Positions 29,297-39,378 of a stretch of 64,000 bases of DNA are shown in pieces (the first letter of the stretch is position 1; every line of letters begins with the position of its first letter). Below the pieces are notes generated by a model. That model was not told where the DNA came from, did not search any database, and saw only the letters and a program-made list of their open reading frames with translations. Source of the stretch: an archaeon (GTDB lineage Archaea > Nanobdellota > Nanobdellia > SCGC-AAA011-G17 > GW2011-AR17); assembly GCA_018653605.1 (NCBI GenBank), contig JABHYY010000021.1, positions 4,329 to 68,328 on the forward strand, read 5' to 3'. The translations under genes and the position numbers were made by a program.

Positions 29297-29677
29297 TTAA
29301 GCTGACTGCTGTGTTAGCTGTTGTTTTTCTGCTTGTGAGTAAAGCTGTTCTACTTTTGTTCTGTAAGGTGTTAAGGCTTCTTCAGTGTCTGCCATTAAAA
29401 CTGTAATTAAGGTTCCATTTACTAAAGCTAGAGGACCTCTCTTAAGCACCTTAGAACTTGAAACTGCTGTTACACCACCTGTTAAATGATATATTCTATT
29501 TATACTGTCCAACACACTTCCTTGAATTCCTGTTATTTCAGACAAATCTGCTGAAGTTTGAATTTCTAAAGGACTCTCTCTAGAATTATGTTCACAGAAG
29601 TAATCATATAATGCACCCTCTAATTCTGCATAAACAGGAGGGATTAATTCTTCTACTTTGAAAATTTTTTCTGCCAT
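29297..29677 (-). CDS. hypothetical protein
   Basis: 126-aa ORF. Confidence 0.6.
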   Translation of the reverse strand: MAEKIFKVEELIPPVYAELEGALYDYFCEHNSRESPLEIQTSADLSEITGIQGSVLDSINRIYHLTGGVTAVSSSKVLKRGPLALVNGTLITVLMADTEEALTPYRTKVEQLYSQAEKQQLTQQSA

Positions 29678-29765: not shown

Positions 29766-30800
29766 ATGAAAAATTTAAGAGTTATTGAAGCCTCTGGTAG
29801 CAATTATGAAATTGGCTTTAAAATAGGTAAAGAAACTAAAGAAGAAATTAAAAAAGTTTTAGAAACTACTGGATATGTTAATTTGTCTGAAACATATGAG
29901 ATTAAGATAGCTTATAAAAATTTCTTATCTATTCTCAAAAAAAAATTCCCAAAATATATCGAAGAATTGCAAGGGATGGCTGATGGTGCTGAAGTAGAGT
30001 TTAGAACACTGATGAAACTAAACCTTCCTGAATTAAAAAAAATATTTAAAACATCTGATTCAGAACATGATCAATGTACAACTTTTGTTTTAAAGGACAA
30101 AGATAGAGTTTTTATTGCTCATAATGAAGATGGACCTTTTACTGCTGATATTTTTTTACTTAAAGTTAAACTTCCTTCAGAAATTCAAGTTCTAACTGTT
30201 TGTTATTATGGAGTTTTAATGGGATTTTCTGCAACAATGACCTCAAAAGGCCTTTTTTATGTTTGTAATGCTTTAACTTGTAATGATTTTAAAAATGAAG
30301 GAATCCCAAAAAGATTTATTACAAGATCAGCAGTAGAATCAACAAGCTTTGAAAGTTTTGTTAAAACAGTTACAACAGTGGAAAGATCAGCAGGACAAAA
30401 TTATATTGTTTATCATAAAGAGAAAGTTTATGATGTTGAAGTTTCTGGAACAAACTATCTTATAAAAGAAATCCAGGATAAATTTTGTCATGCAAACCAT
30501 TTTATCCTTAGTGAAATGGAAAAGTATGAAGGGAAAAAAGAGAAAAATGTTGGGAGTTTTTTAAGATATAAGGTTGCTACTGAAGGATTAAATTTGTCAA
30601 AAAATGAAAAAGATTTTATACAAATTCTTTCATCTCATCAGAACAGACCCTCTTGTTTATGTTCACATGGAAAAGAAACTGGAGATTTAAATAAAACTTT
30701 GGGACTAGTTCTTTTTGATAGTTCAAAGAAAAACCAAATAAGTATTAGTAAAGGATTTACTTGTAATGCAAAAATAAAGGATTATTTATTAAATAACTAG
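29766..30800 (+). CDS. peptidase C45 family Ntn-hydrolase/acyltransferase
   Basis: YIEELQGMADGA, QCTTF (nucleophile Cys), AHNED and HANHF motifs. Confidence 0.88.
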   Translation: MKNLRVIEASGSNYEIGFKIGKETKEEIKKVLETTGYVNLSETYEIKIAYKNFLSILKKKFPKYIEELQGMADGAEVEFRTLMKLNLPELKKIFKTSDSEHDQCTTFVLKDKDRVFIAHNEDGPFTADIFLLKVKLPSEIQVLTVCYYGVLMGFSATMTSKGLFYVCNALTCNDFKNEGIPKRFITRSAVESTSFESFVKTVTTVERSAGQNYIVYHKEKVYDVEVSGTNYLIKEIQDKFCHANHFILSEMEKYEGKKEKNVGSFLRYKVATEGLNLSKNEKDFIQILSSHQNRPSCLCSHGKETGDLNKTLGLVLFDSSKKNQISISKGFTCNAKIKDYLLNN

Positions 30801-32111
30801 AGAATCAACTATACCTTCTAATTCTTGAACTTGTCTATCTCTTTCTTTTGCACTTTCTGCAACTGCAACAAATTTTCCTAAAGCTTCACCCTTCTTAACT
30901 TCAGATCCATCTTCAACCATTCCAACAAAAGATCCTTGCTTTCTCTGAAACAAATCTGTTTCATCAGGAATTAAAATTTGAGGATGATTTATTCTACCTG
31001 AACATTGTGCATAAAGTTCTCTTCTTAAAACAAAAATTCCTTGAGGTTCTTCCCAAAGTTTGAAACCGTTAAAGGTTCCATCAAAAATAGCCATTCTCTC
31101 TAAGTCTAAAATAGTAGGATATCTTTCAGGCCTTGTCTGTTCCATTAATAACATTCTTTCTGCTGATGATCCTGCATATCTAGCATTTATCTCACCAAAA
31201 AGAACTCTTTCTTTAGAGTCAATATTGAAATCAAGACTAACATATCCCTTAACCCCTTGTTCTGCTAGAACTCTTCCTGCAACTAAAGCTTGCTTAACAA
31301 CCTCCTCCATTAAATCTTCTGGAACTGAAGAAGGATATACATTTCCTCTACATCCCAAAGGATTTTTTTTATCAAAAATTTGATCCATAATCCCATATGC
31401 AATAACTTCATCTGGGTTTGCTATTATTATATCAATACTAGGAGTAAATGCTAAATCTAGAGATTCTGCTAGAATTAATTTAGTAGTTGGATCGAGAGTT
31501 GCCAAGTAAACTTCAAGTTCTTCTTTACTATTTGATAAATGAGATCTGTGTCCTCCTCCACCAACATCTTGATTTACAAAAACCCCTTTTGATGAAGCAA
31601 CAGTTTCAAAGTGACTTCCTGCTTCTTCAGCAGTGGTTGCAACATATCTTGGTAAAGATAATTGCCCATTAAATAATCTATATTGATTAACTTTGCTATT
31701 GTAGGTTTCTGCTTGTTCAGGAGTTAAACCAAAACACCTCATTCTAGGATCTTCAAATTGAGAAGCAAATGAGGGATGGTTTCTAAATGTTTTAATATCA
31801 AGATGTCCTTGTTCTCTTACAAGAGATTGAAATAATTTTTGTATTCTCTCTGAATTAACAATAGCTTGATAAAATTCTTCATAACTCAAATCTCTTCCTC
31901 TTTTTCTTCTTCCAAGTATTTCTCCAGCTAAATACATAAAATTATCTGGAACCTTGCCAGGTAATTCTCCACAAATGAAAATTGGTTCAAACCCTTCAAG
32001 TAATTGAGGAATTGGTTGTGAATTTGAAAAACCAGCTGATAAGTAAACAAAATACTCTTTATTAGGACTTAATTCTCTTATCCCATCATAAAAAATTTTT
32101 GTCTTATCCAT
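30789..32111 (-). CDS. ATP-grasp ligase (PGM1/L-amino-acid-ligase-like)
   Basis: GGGG loop, GYVSLDF and GEINAR motifs; carboxylase-like C-terminal domain. Confidence 0.8.
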   Translation of the reverse strand: MDKTKIFYDGIRELSPNKEYFVYLSAGFSNSQPIPQLLEGFEPIFICGELPGKVPDNFMYLAGEILGRRKRGRDLSYEEFYQAIVNSERIQKLFQSLVREQGHLDIKTFRNHPSFASQFEDPRMRCFGLTPEQAETYNSKVNQYRLFNGQLSLPRYVATTAEEAGSHFETVASSKGVFVNQDVGGGGHRSHLSNSKEELEVYLATLDPTTKLILAESLDLAFTPSIDIIIANPDEVIAYGIMDQIFDKKNPLGCRGNVYPSSVPEDLMEEVVKQALVAGRVLAEQGVKGYVSLDFNIDSKERVLFGEINARYAGSSAERMLLMEQTRPERYPTILDLERMAIFDGTFNGFKLWEEPQGIFVLRRELYAQCSGRINHPQILIPDETDLFQRKQGSFVGMVEDGSEVKKGEALGKFVAVAESAKERDRQVQELEGIVDSLVI

Positions 32112-33057
32112 TTAAGTGTGTCTCCAATAAATAATTGTATAAATTCTTTGCAAATAAAGAACCTATTCCTTCTAACCTCTCGTAAATTGCAGGATTTATT
32201 AATTCTACTTCAATAATTTGAGGCTTACCCTCTTGGTGAATTAAATCTAATCTCATAACATCAATAGGTGTTTCCCAAACTGCACGAATTTCTCTTCCTA
32301 AAGCAACCTCTTCATCTGTAGGAACATAATGCTCATATTCTTTTCCAGGAAAATAATTTACTCGAATATCGCCACTTAAGGGTTTTTTAACAGCATGAGA
32401 AAAAGTATCTCCTAAAAAAACTAAACTTACTTCTCCATTCTGAACCCCTTTAAGATAAGGTTGTACTAGTAAAGAACCATACCTTTCAAAAGTATCTAGA
32501 AAAATTTGAACTGGCCTGGATTCTACTTTTTCCACACCTCTTCCACTTTCTCCTCCATCCAAGGGTTTAATAACTTCTTCTAACCCATCTCTAATTTGTT
32601 CACCACAAAAAGACCTTATTTCTTTTTCTGATAATAAACTAACAGATTTTGGAATAGGAAAACCCTTTTCTTGTAAAAATAATAAGTATTTTTTAGAAAC
32701 ATTTTCAAGCATTGTTTGAGGACCATTTACAGTAGGAACATCTAAAGTTTGAAGATAATAAAATAATCTTTTTAGAGTACCTAAATTTTCGTTTATACTT
32801 CCAGAACCTAATTGCCTTAAAACAACCAAATCTATCCCTTCTAAAGGAGTGGGCCTAAATAATTTTGTTTCTGAATCATAGGCCATTATTGGTTGGCTAG
32901 AATCCAAAGGAATATCTTCCCAAGGAACAACACTAACTGCAACACCATTAGTAGAAAAATAGTTTGTTATATCTCTTACATCTTCAGCATTTTCTGAGAA
33001 AACATTAGGTAAATTTTCATAGGCTTGTCCAATAAGTAAAATTCTTTTTTGAGACAT
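32104..33057 (-). CDS. ATP-grasp ligase (GshB/DcsG-like, ExE variant)
   Basis: VIKP..GESGRGV, LVQPYL, RLDL and IEVELINP motifs; start at ATG 33057. Confidence 0.83.
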   Translation of the reverse strand: MSQKRILLIGQAYENLPNVFSENAEDVRDITNYFSTNGVAVSVVPWEDIPLDSSQPIMAYDSETKLFRPTPLEGIDLVVLRQLGSGSINENLGTLKRLFYYLQTLDVPTVNGPQTMLENVSKKYLLFLQEKGFPIPKSVSLLSEKEIRSFCGEQIRDGLEEVIKPLDGGESGRGVEKVESRPVQIFLDTFERYGSLLVQPYLKGVQNGEVSLVFLGDTFSHAVKKPLSGDIRVNYFPGKEYEHYVPTDEEVALGREIRAVWETPIDVMRLDLIHQEGKPQIIEVELINPAIYERLEGIGSLFAKNLYNYLLETHLNG

Positions 33058-33058
33058 C

Positions 33059-34012
33059 CTAATGTATAAACCTCTTAACAATTAACTCTGTGGCCATGCT
33101 AATTCTGTCCACCTCTGTTTCATCATAGCTAGGAGAAGGGTTATTTTCAATAATAGCTGGTCCATCTGAAGTGTAAGTTATATCAACTTCATTAAACATT
33201 GCGCCAATGGCTTCAGTTGCTTTTCTAGCTACTTCTATATCATCTGCTTCAGGAGTATATTCTGTCATCTCTGATCCCCGAGCAACACTAGCTAACCAAA
33301 TGTCATCTGAACTTCCACTTGAAATTAATGTTCTTTTATAAGAGAAAGCAAATTCTCCATCAACAATAGCAATTCTGCAATCATGATCTCTTACACTATG
33401 TAAAAACTGCTGAACTACTAATCCAGCATCATAACTTCGTTTATATGTGGGGCTCAACATATGCTGTAAAACATGCTCTAGTTCTCCTTCATCATTTACT
33501 CTTGCTAAGTCCTTTCCTCTACCACCCATATCCCTCTTAACAACAAGAGGGTAACCTACTTCAGCAACAAAAGGAATTACAGCTTTATCATACTCATCTA
33601 AATCTGTTACAAGTAATGATCTTGGATTGAGAACACCAGCTTCATGCATTGTCTCTGAAGCATAAGACTTACTATAATCTGATAAAGTTGTATGAAGAGA
33701 ATTTAAACAAGTCATTCCTAAAGCTTCTAATGATCCTAACATCATTAAAGCTCTCATATTATCTTGCCAATTTCTATTTGCCACACTTGCATAAACTCTG
33801 TTTAAAACTAAACCATAATCTCTCAAAGCTGGAACATCTTTACAAATAAGACCCATTCTTCTTGGATCACTGTGAACTGTAGGAAGAGGTAAACTATCAT
33901 CAATCAAATCTCTAACATCATACAAATCTGCTTTTATTCCTCTGTCTTTGAACTGCCTCTGAAATTCTTCTTCAGCCCATTCTAAATCTTGATGTAAAAT
34001 TGCAATTTTCAT
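33059..34012 (-). CDS. ATP-grasp ligase (RimK/LysX-like)
   Basis: GYPLVVK..GGRGKD, VVQQFL, DCRIAIVDG and IIENNPSP motifs. Confidence 0.88.
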   Translation of the reverse strand: MKIAILHQDLEWAEEEFQRQFKDRGIKADLYDVRDLIDDSLPLPTVHSDPRRMGLICKDVPALRDYGLVLNRVYASVANRNWQDNMRALMMLGSLEALGMTCLNSLHTTLSDYSKSYASETMHEAGVLNPRSLLVTDLDEYDKAVIPFVAEVGYPLVVKRDMGGRGKDLARVNDEGELEHVLQHMLSPTYKRSYDAGLVVQQFLHSVRDHDCRIAIVDGEFAFSYKRTLISSGSSDDIWLASVARGSEMTEYTPEADDIEVARKATEAIGAMFNEVDITYTSDGPAIIENNPSPSYDETEVDRISMATELIVKRFIH

Positions 34013-34046
34013 AATAAAAAATGTTTAAAGTCTCTATTTTTAAAGC

Positions 34047-34874
34047 TTATGCTTCTAATAGATCTAAAGTTTTATCTTTGATATAATAGAAAGGTTCGAT
34101 TGCTGTTCTCTTGATAAAAAGATAGGGTTCTACAATCACTTCGAATAAGAAATTTTCTGTTGTTGTTCTTCTTATTGATGCTCTCTCTACTGCTACTTCT
34201 GCCAAAATTCTTGAAGAATCAATAATAATAAAAGGGGGTTTGTTTAGAACAATTCCAATCTCAGTACATCCCGCAATCACAACTTGTGCTCCCCTTTCTA
34301 ATAATTTTTGTGCTGCATTCTCTAAGAGTAAGTAAGGATAATCATGAAAACCTGCTTTCAAACCTTTCTCTCCATAAATTGATTCCATTATTAGTCCTTC
34401 TTGCTCTTCATCAGAAGGTGTTACTGCAGATAAACCATATTTTTCTAATGCTTTTTCATAAAGGCCTGTGTACATTGTTCCAGTTGTTGCTAAAATACCA
34501 ACACTTGTTACTTCAGGATGATTTTTTACAATATGTTTCACTGTTTCCTCAACCATATTTATTATTGGAATGTCTACTCCTCTCTGAATGGATCTTAAAT
34601 AATAATGAGATGTGTTACAGGGCAAAAGGATGAAATCAGCACCAGCATTTTGTAATGCCCTCGCTGTCCTCTGCAATTCTCGAACAGGACTTTTATCTTG
34701 ACCTAGAATTGCTTTTGTTCTATCAGGAACTTTTGGATTGTTAAAAGTGATCACTCTAAGATGTTCTTGATCTTTTTTAGCTGGAGTTAAGGCTGTTATT
34801 TCAGAACACAATTTATTTGTTGCTTCAGGCCCAAGCCCTCCTAATATTCCAATAACTCTTTCTCTTTTCTTCAT
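34047..34874 (-). CDS. PLP-independent aspartate/glutamate racemase
   Basis: GILGGLGPEAT; two catalytic Cys in PCNTSH and AGCTEI. Confidence 0.93.
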   Translation of the reverse strand: MKKRERVIGILGGLGPEATNKLCSEITALTPAKKDQEHLRVITFNNPKVPDRTKAILGQDKSPVRELQRTARALQNAGADFILLPCNTSHYYLRSIQRGVDIPIINMVEETVKHIVKNHPEVTSVGILATTGTMYTGLYEKALEKYGLSAVTPSDEEQEGLIMESIYGEKGLKAGFHDYPYLLLENAAQKLLERGAQVVIAGCTEIGIVLNKPPFIIIDSSRILAEVAVERASIRRTTTENFLFEVIVEPYLFIKRTAIEPFYYIKDKTLDLLEA

Positions 34875-38340: not shown

Positions 38341-38772
38341 TTAATTGATTAAATTACTGTTTATAAAGGTTTCGGAGAGTTTTTTTATAATTTTTTTGAA
38401 TTTAACTTCGTTTTGGATAAGGAAACCATTACTAATATTCTCTCCCCTATAACTAATATCATTTCTTAATTTTCTTAGGTTATTAATTACTCTTATTTCT
38501 TCTTTAAAGAAATCAAACCTTATTTTGCTATAAGCTATTAAACAAATATGATTACTACAATTATAGCCTTCTCTGTATAAATTGGCAAATATTAATTCTT
38601 TGATAATATCATAATAAGCTTCTATTTTAAGAGAAGTATATTTTTCTTCCATATCTCTATCCAAAAATTCCAGCCTTAAGCTTGCCATAGCAAACATTTT
38701 ATTAGCTATTTCAGGATTTGATCCTATTTTTTGAATAATTCCCCTTTCAACACATTCTTCCCAAGTTATCAT
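38341..38772 (-). CDS. HEPN domain protein
   Basis: AYYDIIKEL..EGY..NH..LRKLRNDISYRG pattern. Confidence 0.75.
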   Translation of the reverse strand: MITWEECVERGIIQKIGSNPEIANKMFAMASLRLEFLDRDMEEKYTSLKIEAYYDIIKELIFANLYREGYNCSNHICLIAYSKIRFDFFKEEIRVINNLRKLRNDISYRGENISNGFLIQNEVKFKKIIKKLSETFINSNLIN

Positions 38773-38818
38773 AAATAGATTATTTATTGTATTTTTTATA
38801 AAAACTGCTTAGAATTTT

Positions 38819-38853
38819 CCGGAAATCTTTCAGGTTTTCTGAAAATCTTACAT
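38819..38853. promoter_or_regulatory. tandem palindromic operator (CTGAAA-ATC-TTTCAG x2), copy 2
   Basis: CCGGAAATCTTTCAG GTTTT CTGAAAATCTTACAT, 47 nt upstream of the HEPN ATG. Confidence 0.6.
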
Positions 38854-39378
38854 AACATTTATATGGCCATACAAAAGAGTGCCCAATACAATATTAATCC
38901 TTAATTCTCTAGAAAGATCATTTATATTTGGTTCAAAGAGAACATGTATTTTTTTTCCAAGCTTTTTTTCAAACTGATAAAGATCCAGATCTATATCTTT
39001 TGCTTCTACAAAAATATCAATATCACTTCTTTCTGTGTAATAACCATCTCCACAACTTCCATATAAAACCATACAATTTGGCCAAGATTTTTTTTCTATG
39101 TATTTAACTAATCCTGATTTCCTTATTTTATATAACATGTATTGTTTTTTGTAAAATCTAAAAATTTTATCTTCTCTATTTGCATAATATGTGGGATATA
39201 ATGTAGATAGCTCTTTTCTTATTAGTTTAAGTTTGCATAATTGTTGAACATATTTTGCAACTGTAGCATGGTTTAAATTAAGTTTTCTAGCTATCTCTCT
39301 AATATGATAATGTTTTAATGAGTGTTCCATAAACAATTCTAATATCTTATATGCTTTATTTTGAAATATCTTATCCAT
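38848..39378 (-). CDS. HTH-minimal nucleotidyltransferase (MNT antitoxin)
   Basis: HIREIARKLNLNHATV HTH; LYGS..G..SDIDIF motif. Confidence 0.88.
   Translation of the reverse strand: MDKIFQNKAYKILELFMEHSLKHYHIREIARKLNLNHATVAKYVQQLCKLKLIRKELSTLYPTYYANREDKIFRFYKKQYMLYKIRKSGLVKYIEKKSWPNCMVLYGSCGDGYYTERSDIDIFVEAKDIDLDLYQFEKKLGKKIHVLFEPNINDLSRELRINIVLGTLLYGHINVM

What the first reader, a model, noticed from the sequence alone, without database searches (positions are those of the whole stretch)
29766..34874. Racemase plus three different ATP-grasp ligases plus C45 hydrolase: candidate D-amino-acid peptide biosynthesis system in a reduced archaeon
Seen: co-directional Asp/Glu racemase, RimK-like ligase (ExN), GshB/DcsG-like ligase (ExE) and PGM1/Lal-like ligase (EINAR). 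The ligases are spaced by 1 nt or overlap, and a C45 Ntn-enzyme converges with a 12-bp overlap. Known: racemase plus ATP-grasp pairs add D-Asp to peptidoglycan bridges (RacD/Aslfm); ATP-grasp ligases build non-ribosomal peptides (PGM1, DcsG, BacD) and poly-Glu tails (RimK, CofF); C45 enzymes self-cleave and act as amidases or acyltransferases. Inference: an NRPS-independent assembly line for a D-residue oligopeptide or surface/protein modification, with C45 for maturation, recycling or self-protection. No mur genes are in the window. This is my strongest candidate for an undescribed system here.
Basis: partly seen in the sequence, partly recalled or inferred. Interest (0 to 1): 0.86.

Follow-up and report, generated by a model that had tools for sequence, protein, structure and literature searches.

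The report
Racemase plus three-ligase D-peptide gene cluster
A tiny marine DPANN archaeon carries a compact, uncharacterised gene set (an aspartate-type racemase, three different ATP-dependent amide-bond ligases and a self-cleaving C45 hydrolase) that most likely builds and breaks down a short peptide containing a mirror-image (D) amino acid without the ribosome. Here a ligase-plus-hydrolase cassette replaces the different one found at the same spot in its closest relatives.

Summary
All five genes are at the stated coordinates with the stated junctions, and the gene order recurs in contigs from several seawater metagenomes.

- Racemase and Lig1: the racemase scores E 2.7e-59 against Pyrococcus aspartate racemase, with both catalytic Cys motifs kept. 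It lies directly upstream of the RimK-like ligase Lig1 in 9 of 9 complete contexts (Lig1 identity 32-58%), including one bacterial locus.
- Downstream genes are modular. They are one or two further ATP-grasp ligases of changing family plus a hydrolase.
- Cassette swap: the closest syntenic relatives carry a GshB-like ligase X, an S66 LD-carboxypeptidase and a DUF3335 gene between Lig1 and FtsZ. This window carries Lig2, Lig3 and C45 at exactly that position.
- Lig3 and C45: they form a convergent pair in four lineages. Lig3 also occurs with C45 alone, or with a GATase1/C26-type amidohydrolase instead.
- Family membership: no ligase reaches the cut-off of any curated cofactor or protein-glutamylation family. 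The 'PGM1-like' label for Lig3 is not supported; it is a generic PurK/biotin-carboxylase/L-amino-acid-ligase-type ATP-grasp.

The product and its role are unknown, and no paper on such a system was found. I rate it a new variant of a known kind (racemase-coupled ATP-grasp ligation), interest about 0.6.

The parts
34047..34874 (-). Aspartate-type amino-acid racemase (275 aa) with a C-terminal extension of about 40 aa
   Evidence: PF01177 at 143.5 bits and TIGR00035 at 216.7 bits. E 2.7e-59 to P. horikoshii aspartate racemase 1jfl, with both catalytic Cys motifs (PCNTSH, AGCTE) aligned. The NCBIfam CuyB hit (229 bits) does not discriminate: 1jfl itself scores 250.9 on that model.
33059..34012 (-). 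Lig1: RimK/LysX-type ATP-grasp ligase (317 aa), the constant partner of the racemase
   Evidence: PF08443 at 45 bits. It is below the cut-off of every curated family: rimK_fam 86.8 of 143.4, LysX 74.9 of 275.6, MptN 69.2 of 350, CofF 33.9 of 300. Nearest solved structures are LysX/ArgX and RimK. There are 108 homologues, and the racemase is directly upstream in 9 of 9 complete contexts.
32104..33057 (-). Lig2: GshB/DcsG-like ATP-grasp ligase (317 aa from the ATG at 33057; 325 aa from the TTG at 33081)
   Evidence: PF02955 at 29 bits; DcsG at 47 bits against a cut-off of 360. The AF2 model has pLDDT 81, and its top Foldseek hits are DcsG 6jil, GshB 1gsa, RimK and ArgX. Invariant K164, E209, R269, D271 and the E283-x-E285 motif are kept in the family. 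Homologues follow Lig1 in L008 and L025.
30789..32111 (-). Lig3: rare three-domain ATP-grasp ligase (440 aa), of PurK / biotin carboxylase / L-amino-acid-ligase architecture
   Evidence: No Pfam hit. The word-index search found only 7 homologues. The exhaustive profile search found 46 representatives at E<=1e-30 and 205 at E<=1e-10. The AF2 model has pLDDT 83 and pTM 0.85. Foldseek gives PurK, biotin carboxylase, PurD and Lal 3vot at TM about 0.6. It overlaps Lig2 by 8 nt.
29766..30800 (+). C45-family self-processing Ntn hydrolase/acyltransferase (344 aa), convergent with Lig3
   Evidence: NF040521 C45_proenzyme at 166.6 bits (cut-off 85) and PF03417 at 68.8 bits. Cys104 aligns with the nucleophile Cys103 of Penicillium acyltransferase 2x1d. 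The D-x-CTT and HNEDG motifs are invariant in three orthologues. It is convergent with Lig3 also in L007, L008/L009 and L001-3/L010.

Best explanation
This is a cytoplasmic, ribosome- and NRPS-independent pathway that makes and turns over a short peptide or peptide conjugate containing a D-amino acid.

- Step 1, well supported by homology: the racemase interconverts L- and D-aspartate, or a closely similar acidic amino acid.
- Step 2, inferred from invariant adjacency and parallel divergence: Lig1, a RimK/LysX-type ATP-grasp enzyme, consumes the D-amino acid. By analogy with its family, it most likely uses the D-residue's amine to attack an acyl-phosphate on an acceptor carboxylate, giving X-D-Asp.
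- Step 3, inferred: Lig2 (GshB/DcsG-like) and Lig3 (L-amino-acid-ligase-like) each add one more amide bond.
- Step 4, inferred from the conserved pairing: the C45 Ntn hydrolase self-cleaves before Cys104 and then hydrolyses, or transfers, the bond made by Lig3, so that the product can be degraded or recycled.

The system is modular. Racemase plus Lig1 is the conserved core across DPANN archaea and at least one bacterial locus. In this lineage a Lig2-Lig3-C45 cassette sits exactly where the nearest relatives have a GshB-like ligase X, an S66 LD-carboxypeptidase and a DUF3335 gene. The identity and role of the product are unknown.
For: Racemase:
- E 2.7e-59 to the characterised P. horikoshii aspartate racemase, both catalytic Cys kept.

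Racemase-Lig1 link:
- The racemase is immediately upstream of the Lig1 homologue in the window, L017/18, L019/20, L021, L023 (bacterial neighbours: sigma-70, DnaG), L024, L025, L026 and L027.
- Identities to the window fall together: racemase 54 down to 40%, Lig1 58 down to 32%.

Variable downstream genes:
- The third gene is always another ATP-grasp-type ligase: the X family, the Lig2 family or a GSP_synth-like protein.
- An S66 LD-carboxypeptidase follows in 5 lineages.

Cassette swap:
- Flanks are syntenic with L017/L019: S12 83%, S7 72-73%, 596-aa protein 61-62%, L10e 66-70%, racemase 51-54%, Lig1 56-58%, FtsZ 85-87%.
- Only the genes between Lig1 and FtsZ differ.

Lig2-Lig3-C45:
- The same order recurs in L007 and L008.
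- A Lig3-C45 convergent pair occurs in 4 lineages.
- Lig3 sits next to a GATase1/C26-type amidohydrolase in L013/L016.
- A 1-nt spacer and an 8-nt overlap between the ligase genes suggest co-translation.

Enzyme integrity:
- Catalytic motifs are intact in all five proteins.
Against: - There is no biochemical or expression evidence. RNA runs of the same study held none of the sampled words.
- The D-substrate and all acceptors are inferred only.
- Racemases are reversible, so the adjacency could also serve D-to-L conversion.
- C45 is transcribed convergently, and Lig3-C45 also occurs without Lig1 and Lig2 (L001). The two halves could therefore be functionally separate.
- Lig1's nearest solved relatives act on protein C-termini, not on free peptides.
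Confidence: 0.55

Rival explanations
1. Reversible modification of a protein tail or carrier protein. Lig1, and perhaps Lig2, adds D-Asp or D-Glu to the C-terminus or to a Glu side chain of a protein, as RimK does on S6 or LysX/ArgX on LysW. The hydrolase (S66 in relatives, C45 here) removes it.
For: - Lig1's closest solved relatives are LysX/ArgX and RimK, all of which act on proteins.
- Lig2's structural neighbours include RimK and ArgX.
- An LD-carboxypeptidase would precisely undo a C-terminal L-D bond.
Against: - No LysW-like or other conserved small ORF accompanies the genes in any locus.
- Lig1 is far below the RimK, LysX and ArgX cut-offs.
- Adjacency to FtsZ and to ribosomal genes is seen only in close syntenic relatives, not in L021 or L023-L027.
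Confidence: 0.15
2. Two unrelated modules that happen to be neighbours. Racemase-Lig1-Lig2 makes one product. Lig3 plus C45 is an independent synthetase/amidase pair for another amide, for example a gamma-glutamyl- or beta-alanyl-type conjugate.
For: - Lig3-C45 stands alone in L001-3/L010.
- Lig3 sits next to a GATase1/C26-type amidohydrolase in L013/L016.
- C45 is on the opposite strand.
- Lig2, Lig3 and C45 have the 6th, 3rd and 5th lowest GC3 of 50 window genes.
Against: - Lig2 and Lig3 overlap by 8 nt.
- The order Lig2-Lig3-C45 recurs in L007 and L008 at only 32-54% identity.
- The cassette occupies the exact slot of the ligase X and S66 genes in syntenic relatives.
Confidence: 0.15
3. Salvage of D-amino-acid peptides taken from bacterial neighbours (murein-stem fragments). 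Hydrolases release D-Asp or D-Glu, the racemase converts it to the L-form, and the ligases re-use fragments, in the manner of the LdcA/Mpl or ykfABCD logic.
For: - Relatives carry an S66 muramoyl-tetrapeptide-carboxypeptidase-like enzyme and a papain-fold DUF3335 protein.
- The organism appears to be a reduced DPANN archaeon.
Against: - Two or three ATP-consuming ligases are not expected in a catabolic route.
- The window has no S66 or DUF3335 gene.
- I saw no peptide transporter next to the cluster in the window.
Confidence: 0.07
4. A bioactive small molecule (an antimetabolite aimed at a host or competitor) with the hydrolase acting as self-immunity, as MccF (S66) does for microcin C.
For: - The S66 family includes MccF-type immunity enzymes (family knowledge).
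- Lig2's best match is the cycloserine enzyme DcsG.
- The ligase content is variable, like a cassette.
Against: - The core is inherited with core genes and is syntenic among relatives.
- I saw no exporter next to the cluster in the window.
- The DcsG score is far below its cut-off (47 of 360).
Confidence: 0.05

Closest known systems
racD-asl (aspartate racemase plus D-aspartate ligase Aslfm/AslA) of Enterococcus faecium and Lactococcus lactis
   Same: An aspartate racemase gene lies next to an ATP-grasp ligase that consumes the D-Asp it makes, without NRPS or ribosome.
   Different: There the acceptor is the Lys of UDP-MurNAc-pentapeptide in a murein-making bacterium. Here the host is an archaeon and no mur genes were found in the window. 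The ligase is of RimK/LysX type, two more ligases follow, and a dedicated hydrolase is attached. Membership of Lig1 in the Aslfm family was not shown.
RimK / LysX / ArgX / MptN / CofF group of ATP-grasp ligases
   Same: Lig1 carries the RimK ATP-grasp domain, and its nearest solved structures are LysX/ArgX and RimK.
   Different: Lig1 is below every curated cut-off. No S6, LysW, methanopterin or F420 context is present. It is paired with a racemase, which none of these enzymes is.
Glutathione synthetase GshB and D-cycloserine synthetase DcsG
   Same: Lig2's fold and best sequence matches. By GshB logic it would extend a dipeptide at its C-terminus.
   Different: Scores are far below the cut-offs (DcsG 47 of 360; glutathione synthetase NF009110 34 of 408). 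The family has E-x-E where the other two ligases here have E-x-N. No GshA or Dcs genes are present.
L-amino-acid ligases (BacD/YwfE, BL00235 3vot, BesA, LdmS) and PGM1
   Same: Lig3 has the three-domain PurK/Lal-type architecture. Its wider family gives weak hits to BesA and LdmS.
   Different: TM is only about 0.6 and identity 10-15%. No PGM1 hit was obtained. Lig3 is paired with a C45 hydrolase, which is not known for these enzymes.
C45 Ntn enzymes: isopenicillin-N acyltransferase (AAT) and Drosophila Tan (beta-alanyl-amine hydrolase)
   Same: A member of the family by score, with the nucleophile Cys conserved. Tan with Ebony is a precedent for a synthetase/hydrolase pair acting on a small amide.
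   Different: Its substrate is unknown, the context is archaeal, and the partner is an ATP-grasp ligase rather than an NRPS-like enzyme.
NAGGN osmolyte system (Ngg ATP-grasp dipeptide ligase, AsnO, M42 peptidase)
   Same: The logic of an ATP-grasp-made small peptide with a dedicated peptidase in the same cluster. One relative (L026) also has an Asn-synthase-like gene after its S66 gene.
   Different: No GNAT or M42 components, no sequence relationship was shown, and a racemase is present. This is an analogy only, from my own knowledge.

Membership tests
Asp/Glu racemase superfamily, aspartate racemase type (PF01177 / TIGR00035) | Score above the curated cut-offs, and two catalytic cysteines | tested here: met
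   143.5 bits (cut-off 31) and 216.7 bits (cut-off 93.1). PCNTSH and AGCTE align with Cys82 and Cys194 (numbering from my memory of the literature) of 1jfl.
Cysteate racemase CuyB (NF052483) | Specific assignment by the equivalog model | tested here: inconclusive
   229 bits against a cut-off of 190. The characterised P. horikoshii aspartate racemase scores 250.9 on the same model, so the model does not separate the two activities.
RimK family alpha-L-glutamate ligases (TIGR00768) and the LysX, MptN, CofF and S6-ligase equivalogs | Score at or above the curated cut-off | tested here: not met
   Lig1 scores 86.8 of 143.4, 74.9 of 275.6, 69.2 of 350, 33.9 of 300 and 25.2 of 331. Only the Pfam domain PF08443 is met (45.3 of 21).
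LysX/ArgX amino-group carrier system | A LysW-type small carrier protein encoded nearby | tested here: not met
   I saw no conserved small ORF in the window or in the related loci.
Glutathione synthetase GshB / DcsG | Score at or above the equivalog cut-off | tested here: not met
   Lig2 scores 47.4 of 360 for DcsG and 34.1 of 408 for glutathione synthetase NF009110. The fold-level resemblance is confirmed.
PGM1-type peptide ligases | Sequence or structural similarity specific to PGM1 | tested here: not met
   No PGM1 hit in the PDB sequence search. The top 50 Foldseek hits are PurK, biotin carboxylase, PurD, PurT and Lal 3vot.
ATP-grasp superfamily (all three ligases) | ATP-grasp fold and a conserved Mg/ATP-binding motif (E-x-N, or E-x-E in Lig2) | tested here: met
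   Pfam and NCBIfam hits. AF2 models at pLDDT 83 and 81 with Foldseek probability 1.00 to ATP-grasp enzymes. Invariant motifs.
Peptidase C45 autoproteolytic acyltransferase/hydrolase (NF040521) | Score above the cut-off, and a nucleophile Cys at the self-cleavage site | tested here: met
   166.6 bits against 85. Cys104 aligns with AAT Cys103 and is invariant in orthologues. Self-cleavage itself cannot be tested with these tools.
racD-asl D-aspartate branch of peptidoglycan synthesis | A murein precursor pathway (mur genes) to supply the acceptor | tested here: not met
   No Mur ligase among the window ORFs of 380 aa or more that were scanned.
DPANN racemase / two-ligase / S66 LD-carboxypeptidase operon (uncharacterised; seen in L017, L019, L021, L024, L026) | S66 peptidase and an X-type ligase after racemase-Lig1 | tested here: not met
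   tblastn of S66, DUF3335 and X-family proteins against the window found nothing. The racemase-Lig1 core is shared.

The most novel reading that the evidence does not exclude
DPANN archaea and some ultra-small bacteria share a combinatorial, ribosome-independent ligase cascade. A constant racemase plus RimK-like starter would feed exchangeable ligase-plus-hydrolase cassettes (X with S66, Lig2-Lig3 with C45, GSP-synthetase-like enzymes). The output would be a family of D-aspartate-containing small peptides that has not been described. These peptides could be protease-resistant metabolites, for example compatible solutes or molecules used in the interaction with the host. This would also give archaeal aspartate racemase its first defined downstream consumer.
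Probability: 0.35. Interest if true: 0.8.

Novelty: new variant of a known kind. Interest (0 to 1): 0.6.

Why it matters
- Free D-aspartate and aspartate racemases have long been reported in archaea (my own knowledge) without a known use. Here the racemase is invariably coupled to a ligase, which makes that question directly testable with four or five small soluble enzymes.
- Judging by their named relatives, these organisms have very small genomes. A retained cluster of about 5 kb that spans archaeal loci and one bacterial locus therefore implies a useful product.
- The exact cassette swap (ligase X and S66 versus Lig2-Lig3-C45) is a natural experiment. It shows that each ligase type travels with its own hydrolase.
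- If the products are new D-residue peptides, they would add a class of metabolites and ATP-grasp specificities of interest for enzymology and peptide synthesis.

Tried and rejected
I could therefore not search the window's own genome for S66, DUF3335, mur genes or a carrier protein, nor run a systematic co-occurrence count over relatives.
- The genome contigs and metagenome-contig scans with the Lig3 profile gave only 3 and 4 loci. Several of these belong to a different Lig3 subfamily.
- PGM1 link for Lig3: rejected.
- CuyB (cysteate racemase) assignment: rejected as non-discriminating after the control with 1jfl.
- Functional link to FtsZ, by analogy with tubulin-tail ligases: rejected, because the adjacency is seen only in close syntenic relatives (against 26, 31-33, 49, 50).
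- 'Joint decay' of Lig3 and C45 in L008: rejected as evidence. The C45 break is a run of N, and L008 and L009 are identical sequence.
- Literature: seven full-text searches found no description of such a cluster.
- RNA: metatranscriptome runs of the same study held none of the sampled words.
- The bacterial-type promoter and terminator scan was uninformative in an archaeon.

Full report
**1. What is there**

The window is AT-rich (GC about 0.32) and archaeal. It encodes split RNA polymerase B and A subunits, TFE-alpha, FtsZ, SMC, AlaRS and CysRS. The named homologues of the cluster proteins come from Nanoarchaeota, Woesearchaeota and Aenigmatarchaeota MAGs, so the organism is a DPANN archaeon. 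Near-identical sequence is present in at least 13 seawater or marine metagenome runs, each holding 80% or more of the sampled words.

- C45, 29766-30800 (+)
- Lig3, 30789-32111 (-)
- Lig2, 32104-33081 (-), or from the ATG at 33057
- Lig1, 33059-34012 (-)
- racemase, 34047-34874 (-)

The sequence at the junctions shows one base between the Lig1 stop and the Lig2 ATG. Lig2 and Lig3 overlap by 8 nt, and Lig3 and C45 converge with a 12-bp overlap. Contigs from four runs of different studies tile all junctions, and the only difference listed is one base in one run. The arrangement is therefore real.

**2. The five proteins**

*Racemase.* It scores PF01177 143.5 bits and TIGR00035 216.7 bits. Against the characterised Pyrococcus horikoshii aspartate racemase (1jfl) it gives E 2.7e-59, and both catalytic cysteine motifs align. 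It also exceeds the cut-off of the NCBIfam 'cysteate racemase CuyB' model. As a control I scored the 1jfl sequence on the same model and it did even better (250.9 bits). That label therefore does not discriminate, and an aspartate-type acidic amino-acid racemase is the justified call.

*Lig1.* It has the RimK ATP-grasp domain but falls below the cut-off of every curated family: rimK_fam, LysX, MptN, CofF and the S6 ligase. Its nearest solved relatives are LysX/ArgX and RimK.

*Lig2.* It matches the GshB ATP-grasp domain weakly, and DcsG best among curated models, though far below the cut-off. An AlphaFold model (pLDDT 81) has DcsG, GshB, RimK and ArgX as its top structural neighbours. The ATP-grasp residues, including the unusual E-x-E motif, are invariant in its family.

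*Lig3.*
- It has no Pfam hit. The word-index search of 5.8 billion proteins found only 7 homologues.
- The exhaustive profile search found 46 representatives at E<=1e-30 and 205 at E<=1e-10.
- Its model (pLDDT 83, pTM 0.85) is a complete three-domain ATP-grasp. It resembles PurK, biotin carboxylase, PurD and the Bacillus L-amino-acid ligase 3vot about equally (TM about 0.6).
- More distant members of its family give weak hits to the dipeptide ligases BesA and LdmS.
- A specific PGM1 relationship is not supported.

*C45.* It is a clear member of the C45 proenzyme family (166.6 bits against a cut-off of 85). Its nucleophile Cys104 aligns with Cys103 of the Penicillium acyltransferase and is invariant in orthologues.

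**3. Context elsewhere**

This is the main result.

*Racemase and Lig1 form a constant pair.*
- Lig1 has 108 homologues. I looked at eight further complete contexts, spanning 32-58% identity.
- In all of them an Asp/Glu racemase gene lies immediately upstream of the Lig1 homologue: L017/18, L019/20, L021, L023, L024, L025, L026 and L027. With the window, that makes 9 of 9.
- L023 has bacterial neighbours (sigma-70, DnaG primase), and its Lig1 homologue is named by NCBI as from a Patescibacteria-group bacterium.
- Identities of racemase and Lig1 to the window proteins fall in parallel.

*The downstream genes vary, but in a patterned way.* The next gene is always another ATP-grasp-type ligase:
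- a GshB-like family that I call X, in L017, L019, L021, L024, L026 and as fourth gene in L027;
- the Lig2 family, in the window, L008 and L025;
- a glutathionylspermidine-synthetase-like protein, in L023 and L027.

X is followed by an S66 LD-carboxypeptidase in five lineages. In L017 and L019 a DUF3335 (C39-like) gene follows the S66 gene.

**4. A cassette swap**

L017 and L019 are syntenic with the window on both sides.

| Gene | Identity to the window protein |
|---|---|
| S12 | 83% |
| S7 | 72-73% |
| 596-aa protein | 61-62% |
| L35Ae | 56-60% |
| L10e | 66-70% |
| Racemase | 51-54% |
| Lig1 | 56-58% |
| (the differing block) | |
| FtsZ | 85-87% |

Between Lig1 and FtsZ the relatives have X, S66 and DUF3335. 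The window has Lig2, Lig3, C45 and a 126-aa ORF.

The window contains no S66, DUF3335 or X homologue. The inserted cassette is related to those of L007 (Lig2 45% over the part present, Lig3 48%, C45 50%) and L008 (Lig1 36%, Lig2 33%, Lig3 42%, C45 54%). Both keep the same order and the convergent C45.

Lig3, C45 and Lig2 have the 3rd, 5th and 6th lowest GC3 of 50 window genes. That is consistent with a separate history or with low expression. The five genes are therefore not one indivisible system. They are a constant core plus an exchangeable ligase-hydrolase cassette.

**5. Lig3 and its hydrolase**

Lig3 and C45 form a convergent pair in the window, L007, L008/9 and L001-3/10. In L001-3/10 they have no Lig1 or Lig2 beside them.

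In L013/L016 the Lig3 orthologue is instead followed by a class-I glutamine-amidotransferase / peptidase C26-type protein. From family knowledge, C45 enzymes (isopenicillin-N acyltransferase, Drosophila Tan) and C26 enzymes cleave amides of omega-linked or beta-amino acyl groups. The recurring pairing therefore suggests that the hydrolase acts on the bond made by Lig3. This is an inference.

**6. Mechanism proposed**

- The racemase supplies D-Asp (homology; strong).
- Lig1 consumes it (adjacency and parallel divergence; moderate). By analogy with its family it probably uses the D-residue as the incoming amine.
- The S66 LD-carboxypeptidase in the sister cassette fits a product with an L-D bond at its C-terminus.
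- Lig2 and Lig3 add further amide bonds.
- C45 turns the product over.
- I saw no signal peptide in the enzymes, and no transporter or carrier protein next to the cluster in the window. I therefore expect a cytoplasmic small peptide or conjugate.

I put about 0.55 on this reading. The rivals are:
- protein-tail or carrier modification, 0.15
- two unrelated adjacent modules, 0.15
- salvage of murein peptides, 0.07
- an antimetabolite with hydrolase-based self-immunity, 0.05

**7. Comparison with known systems**

The nearest functional precedent is racD-asl of Enterococcus and Lactococcus (aspartate racemase plus an ATP-grasp D-aspartate ligase). That system decorates a murein precursor. Here no mur genes were found in the window, and the ligase family differs.

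The refutation criterion 'ligases fall into known cofactor or protein-glutamylation clades' is not met, because all scores are far below the curated cut-offs. The criterion 'genes do not co-occur elsewhere' is also not met, but co-occurrence holds module by module rather than for the five-gene set.

Seven literature searches found no description of such a cluster.

Earlier notes of this scan describe the S66-type version in other genomes and reach a similar reading. They are unverified AI notes. I reproduced their core claims independently from the loci fetched here. The C45/Lig3 variant and the exact swap are what this window adds.

**8. Limits**

There is therefore no whole-genome check and no systematic co-occurrence statistic.
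- No expression data were found.
- The product, the substrates and the biological role are not established.

Noticed in passing
L004:6729-10468, L015:1383-5426, L014:2-2571, L011:66-2824, L012:7072-8943: A paralogous Lig3 subfamily (32-37% identical) sits in a different conserved context: CDP-alcohol phosphatidyltransferase, then the Lig3-like ATP-grasp, then an NTP-transferase that is often fused to or next to an aminotransferase. This looks like head-group or phospho-alcohol chemistry rather than peptide synthesis.
   Followed up: partly
window 34047-34175 (racemase residues about 233-275): The racemase has a C-terminal extension of about 40 aa. Its motif (E/Q)PY(L/Y)F(I/F)(K/R)R.A(I/L)E is shared only with the syntenic relatives L017 and L019. 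It is absent from the P. horikoshii enzyme and from the more distant loci. It might be a docking element.
   Followed up: no
window 38341-39378: Two ORFs (143 and 176 aa) lie between the 596-aa gene and the S7/S12 genes. They have no counterpart at that position in the otherwise syntenic L017 and L019, so they look like an insertion. An earlier first-reader note reads one of them as a HEPN-type toxin gene; I did not test that.
   Followed up: no
window 29766-33081: Lig3, C45 and Lig2 have GC3 of 0.13-0.15, the 3rd, 5th and 6th lowest of 50 genes (mean 0.208, sd 0.05). Racemase and Lig1 are near 0.19. This is consistent with a cassette of separate origin or with low expression.
   Followed up: partly
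L008:1613-2931 and L009:819-2137: The Lig3 orthologue is split by a frameshift into 58-aa and 326-aa pieces, in identical sequence from two samples. The apparent split of the neighbouring C45 gene is only a run of N in the scaffold.
   Followed up: yes
L021:5164-6159, L025:4138-5118, L026:4210-5175: A divergently transcribed protein of about 320-330 aa with HTH_24/AsnC-type domains sits directly upstream of the racemase in three of the related loci, possibly a dedicated regulator. There is no counterpart in the window.
   Followed up: no
L026:8722-10806: A 694-aa protein combining asparagine-synthase-like and diphthamide-synthase-like domains directly follows the S66 gene in one relative. This recalls the AsnO amidotransferase of the NAGGN dipeptide osmolyte system.
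   Followed up: no
window 29297-29677: A 126-aa ORF with no family hit occupies the position between C45 and FtsZ where relatives have the DUF3335 (C39-like) gene. tblastn showed no similarity to DUF3335.
   Followed up: partly
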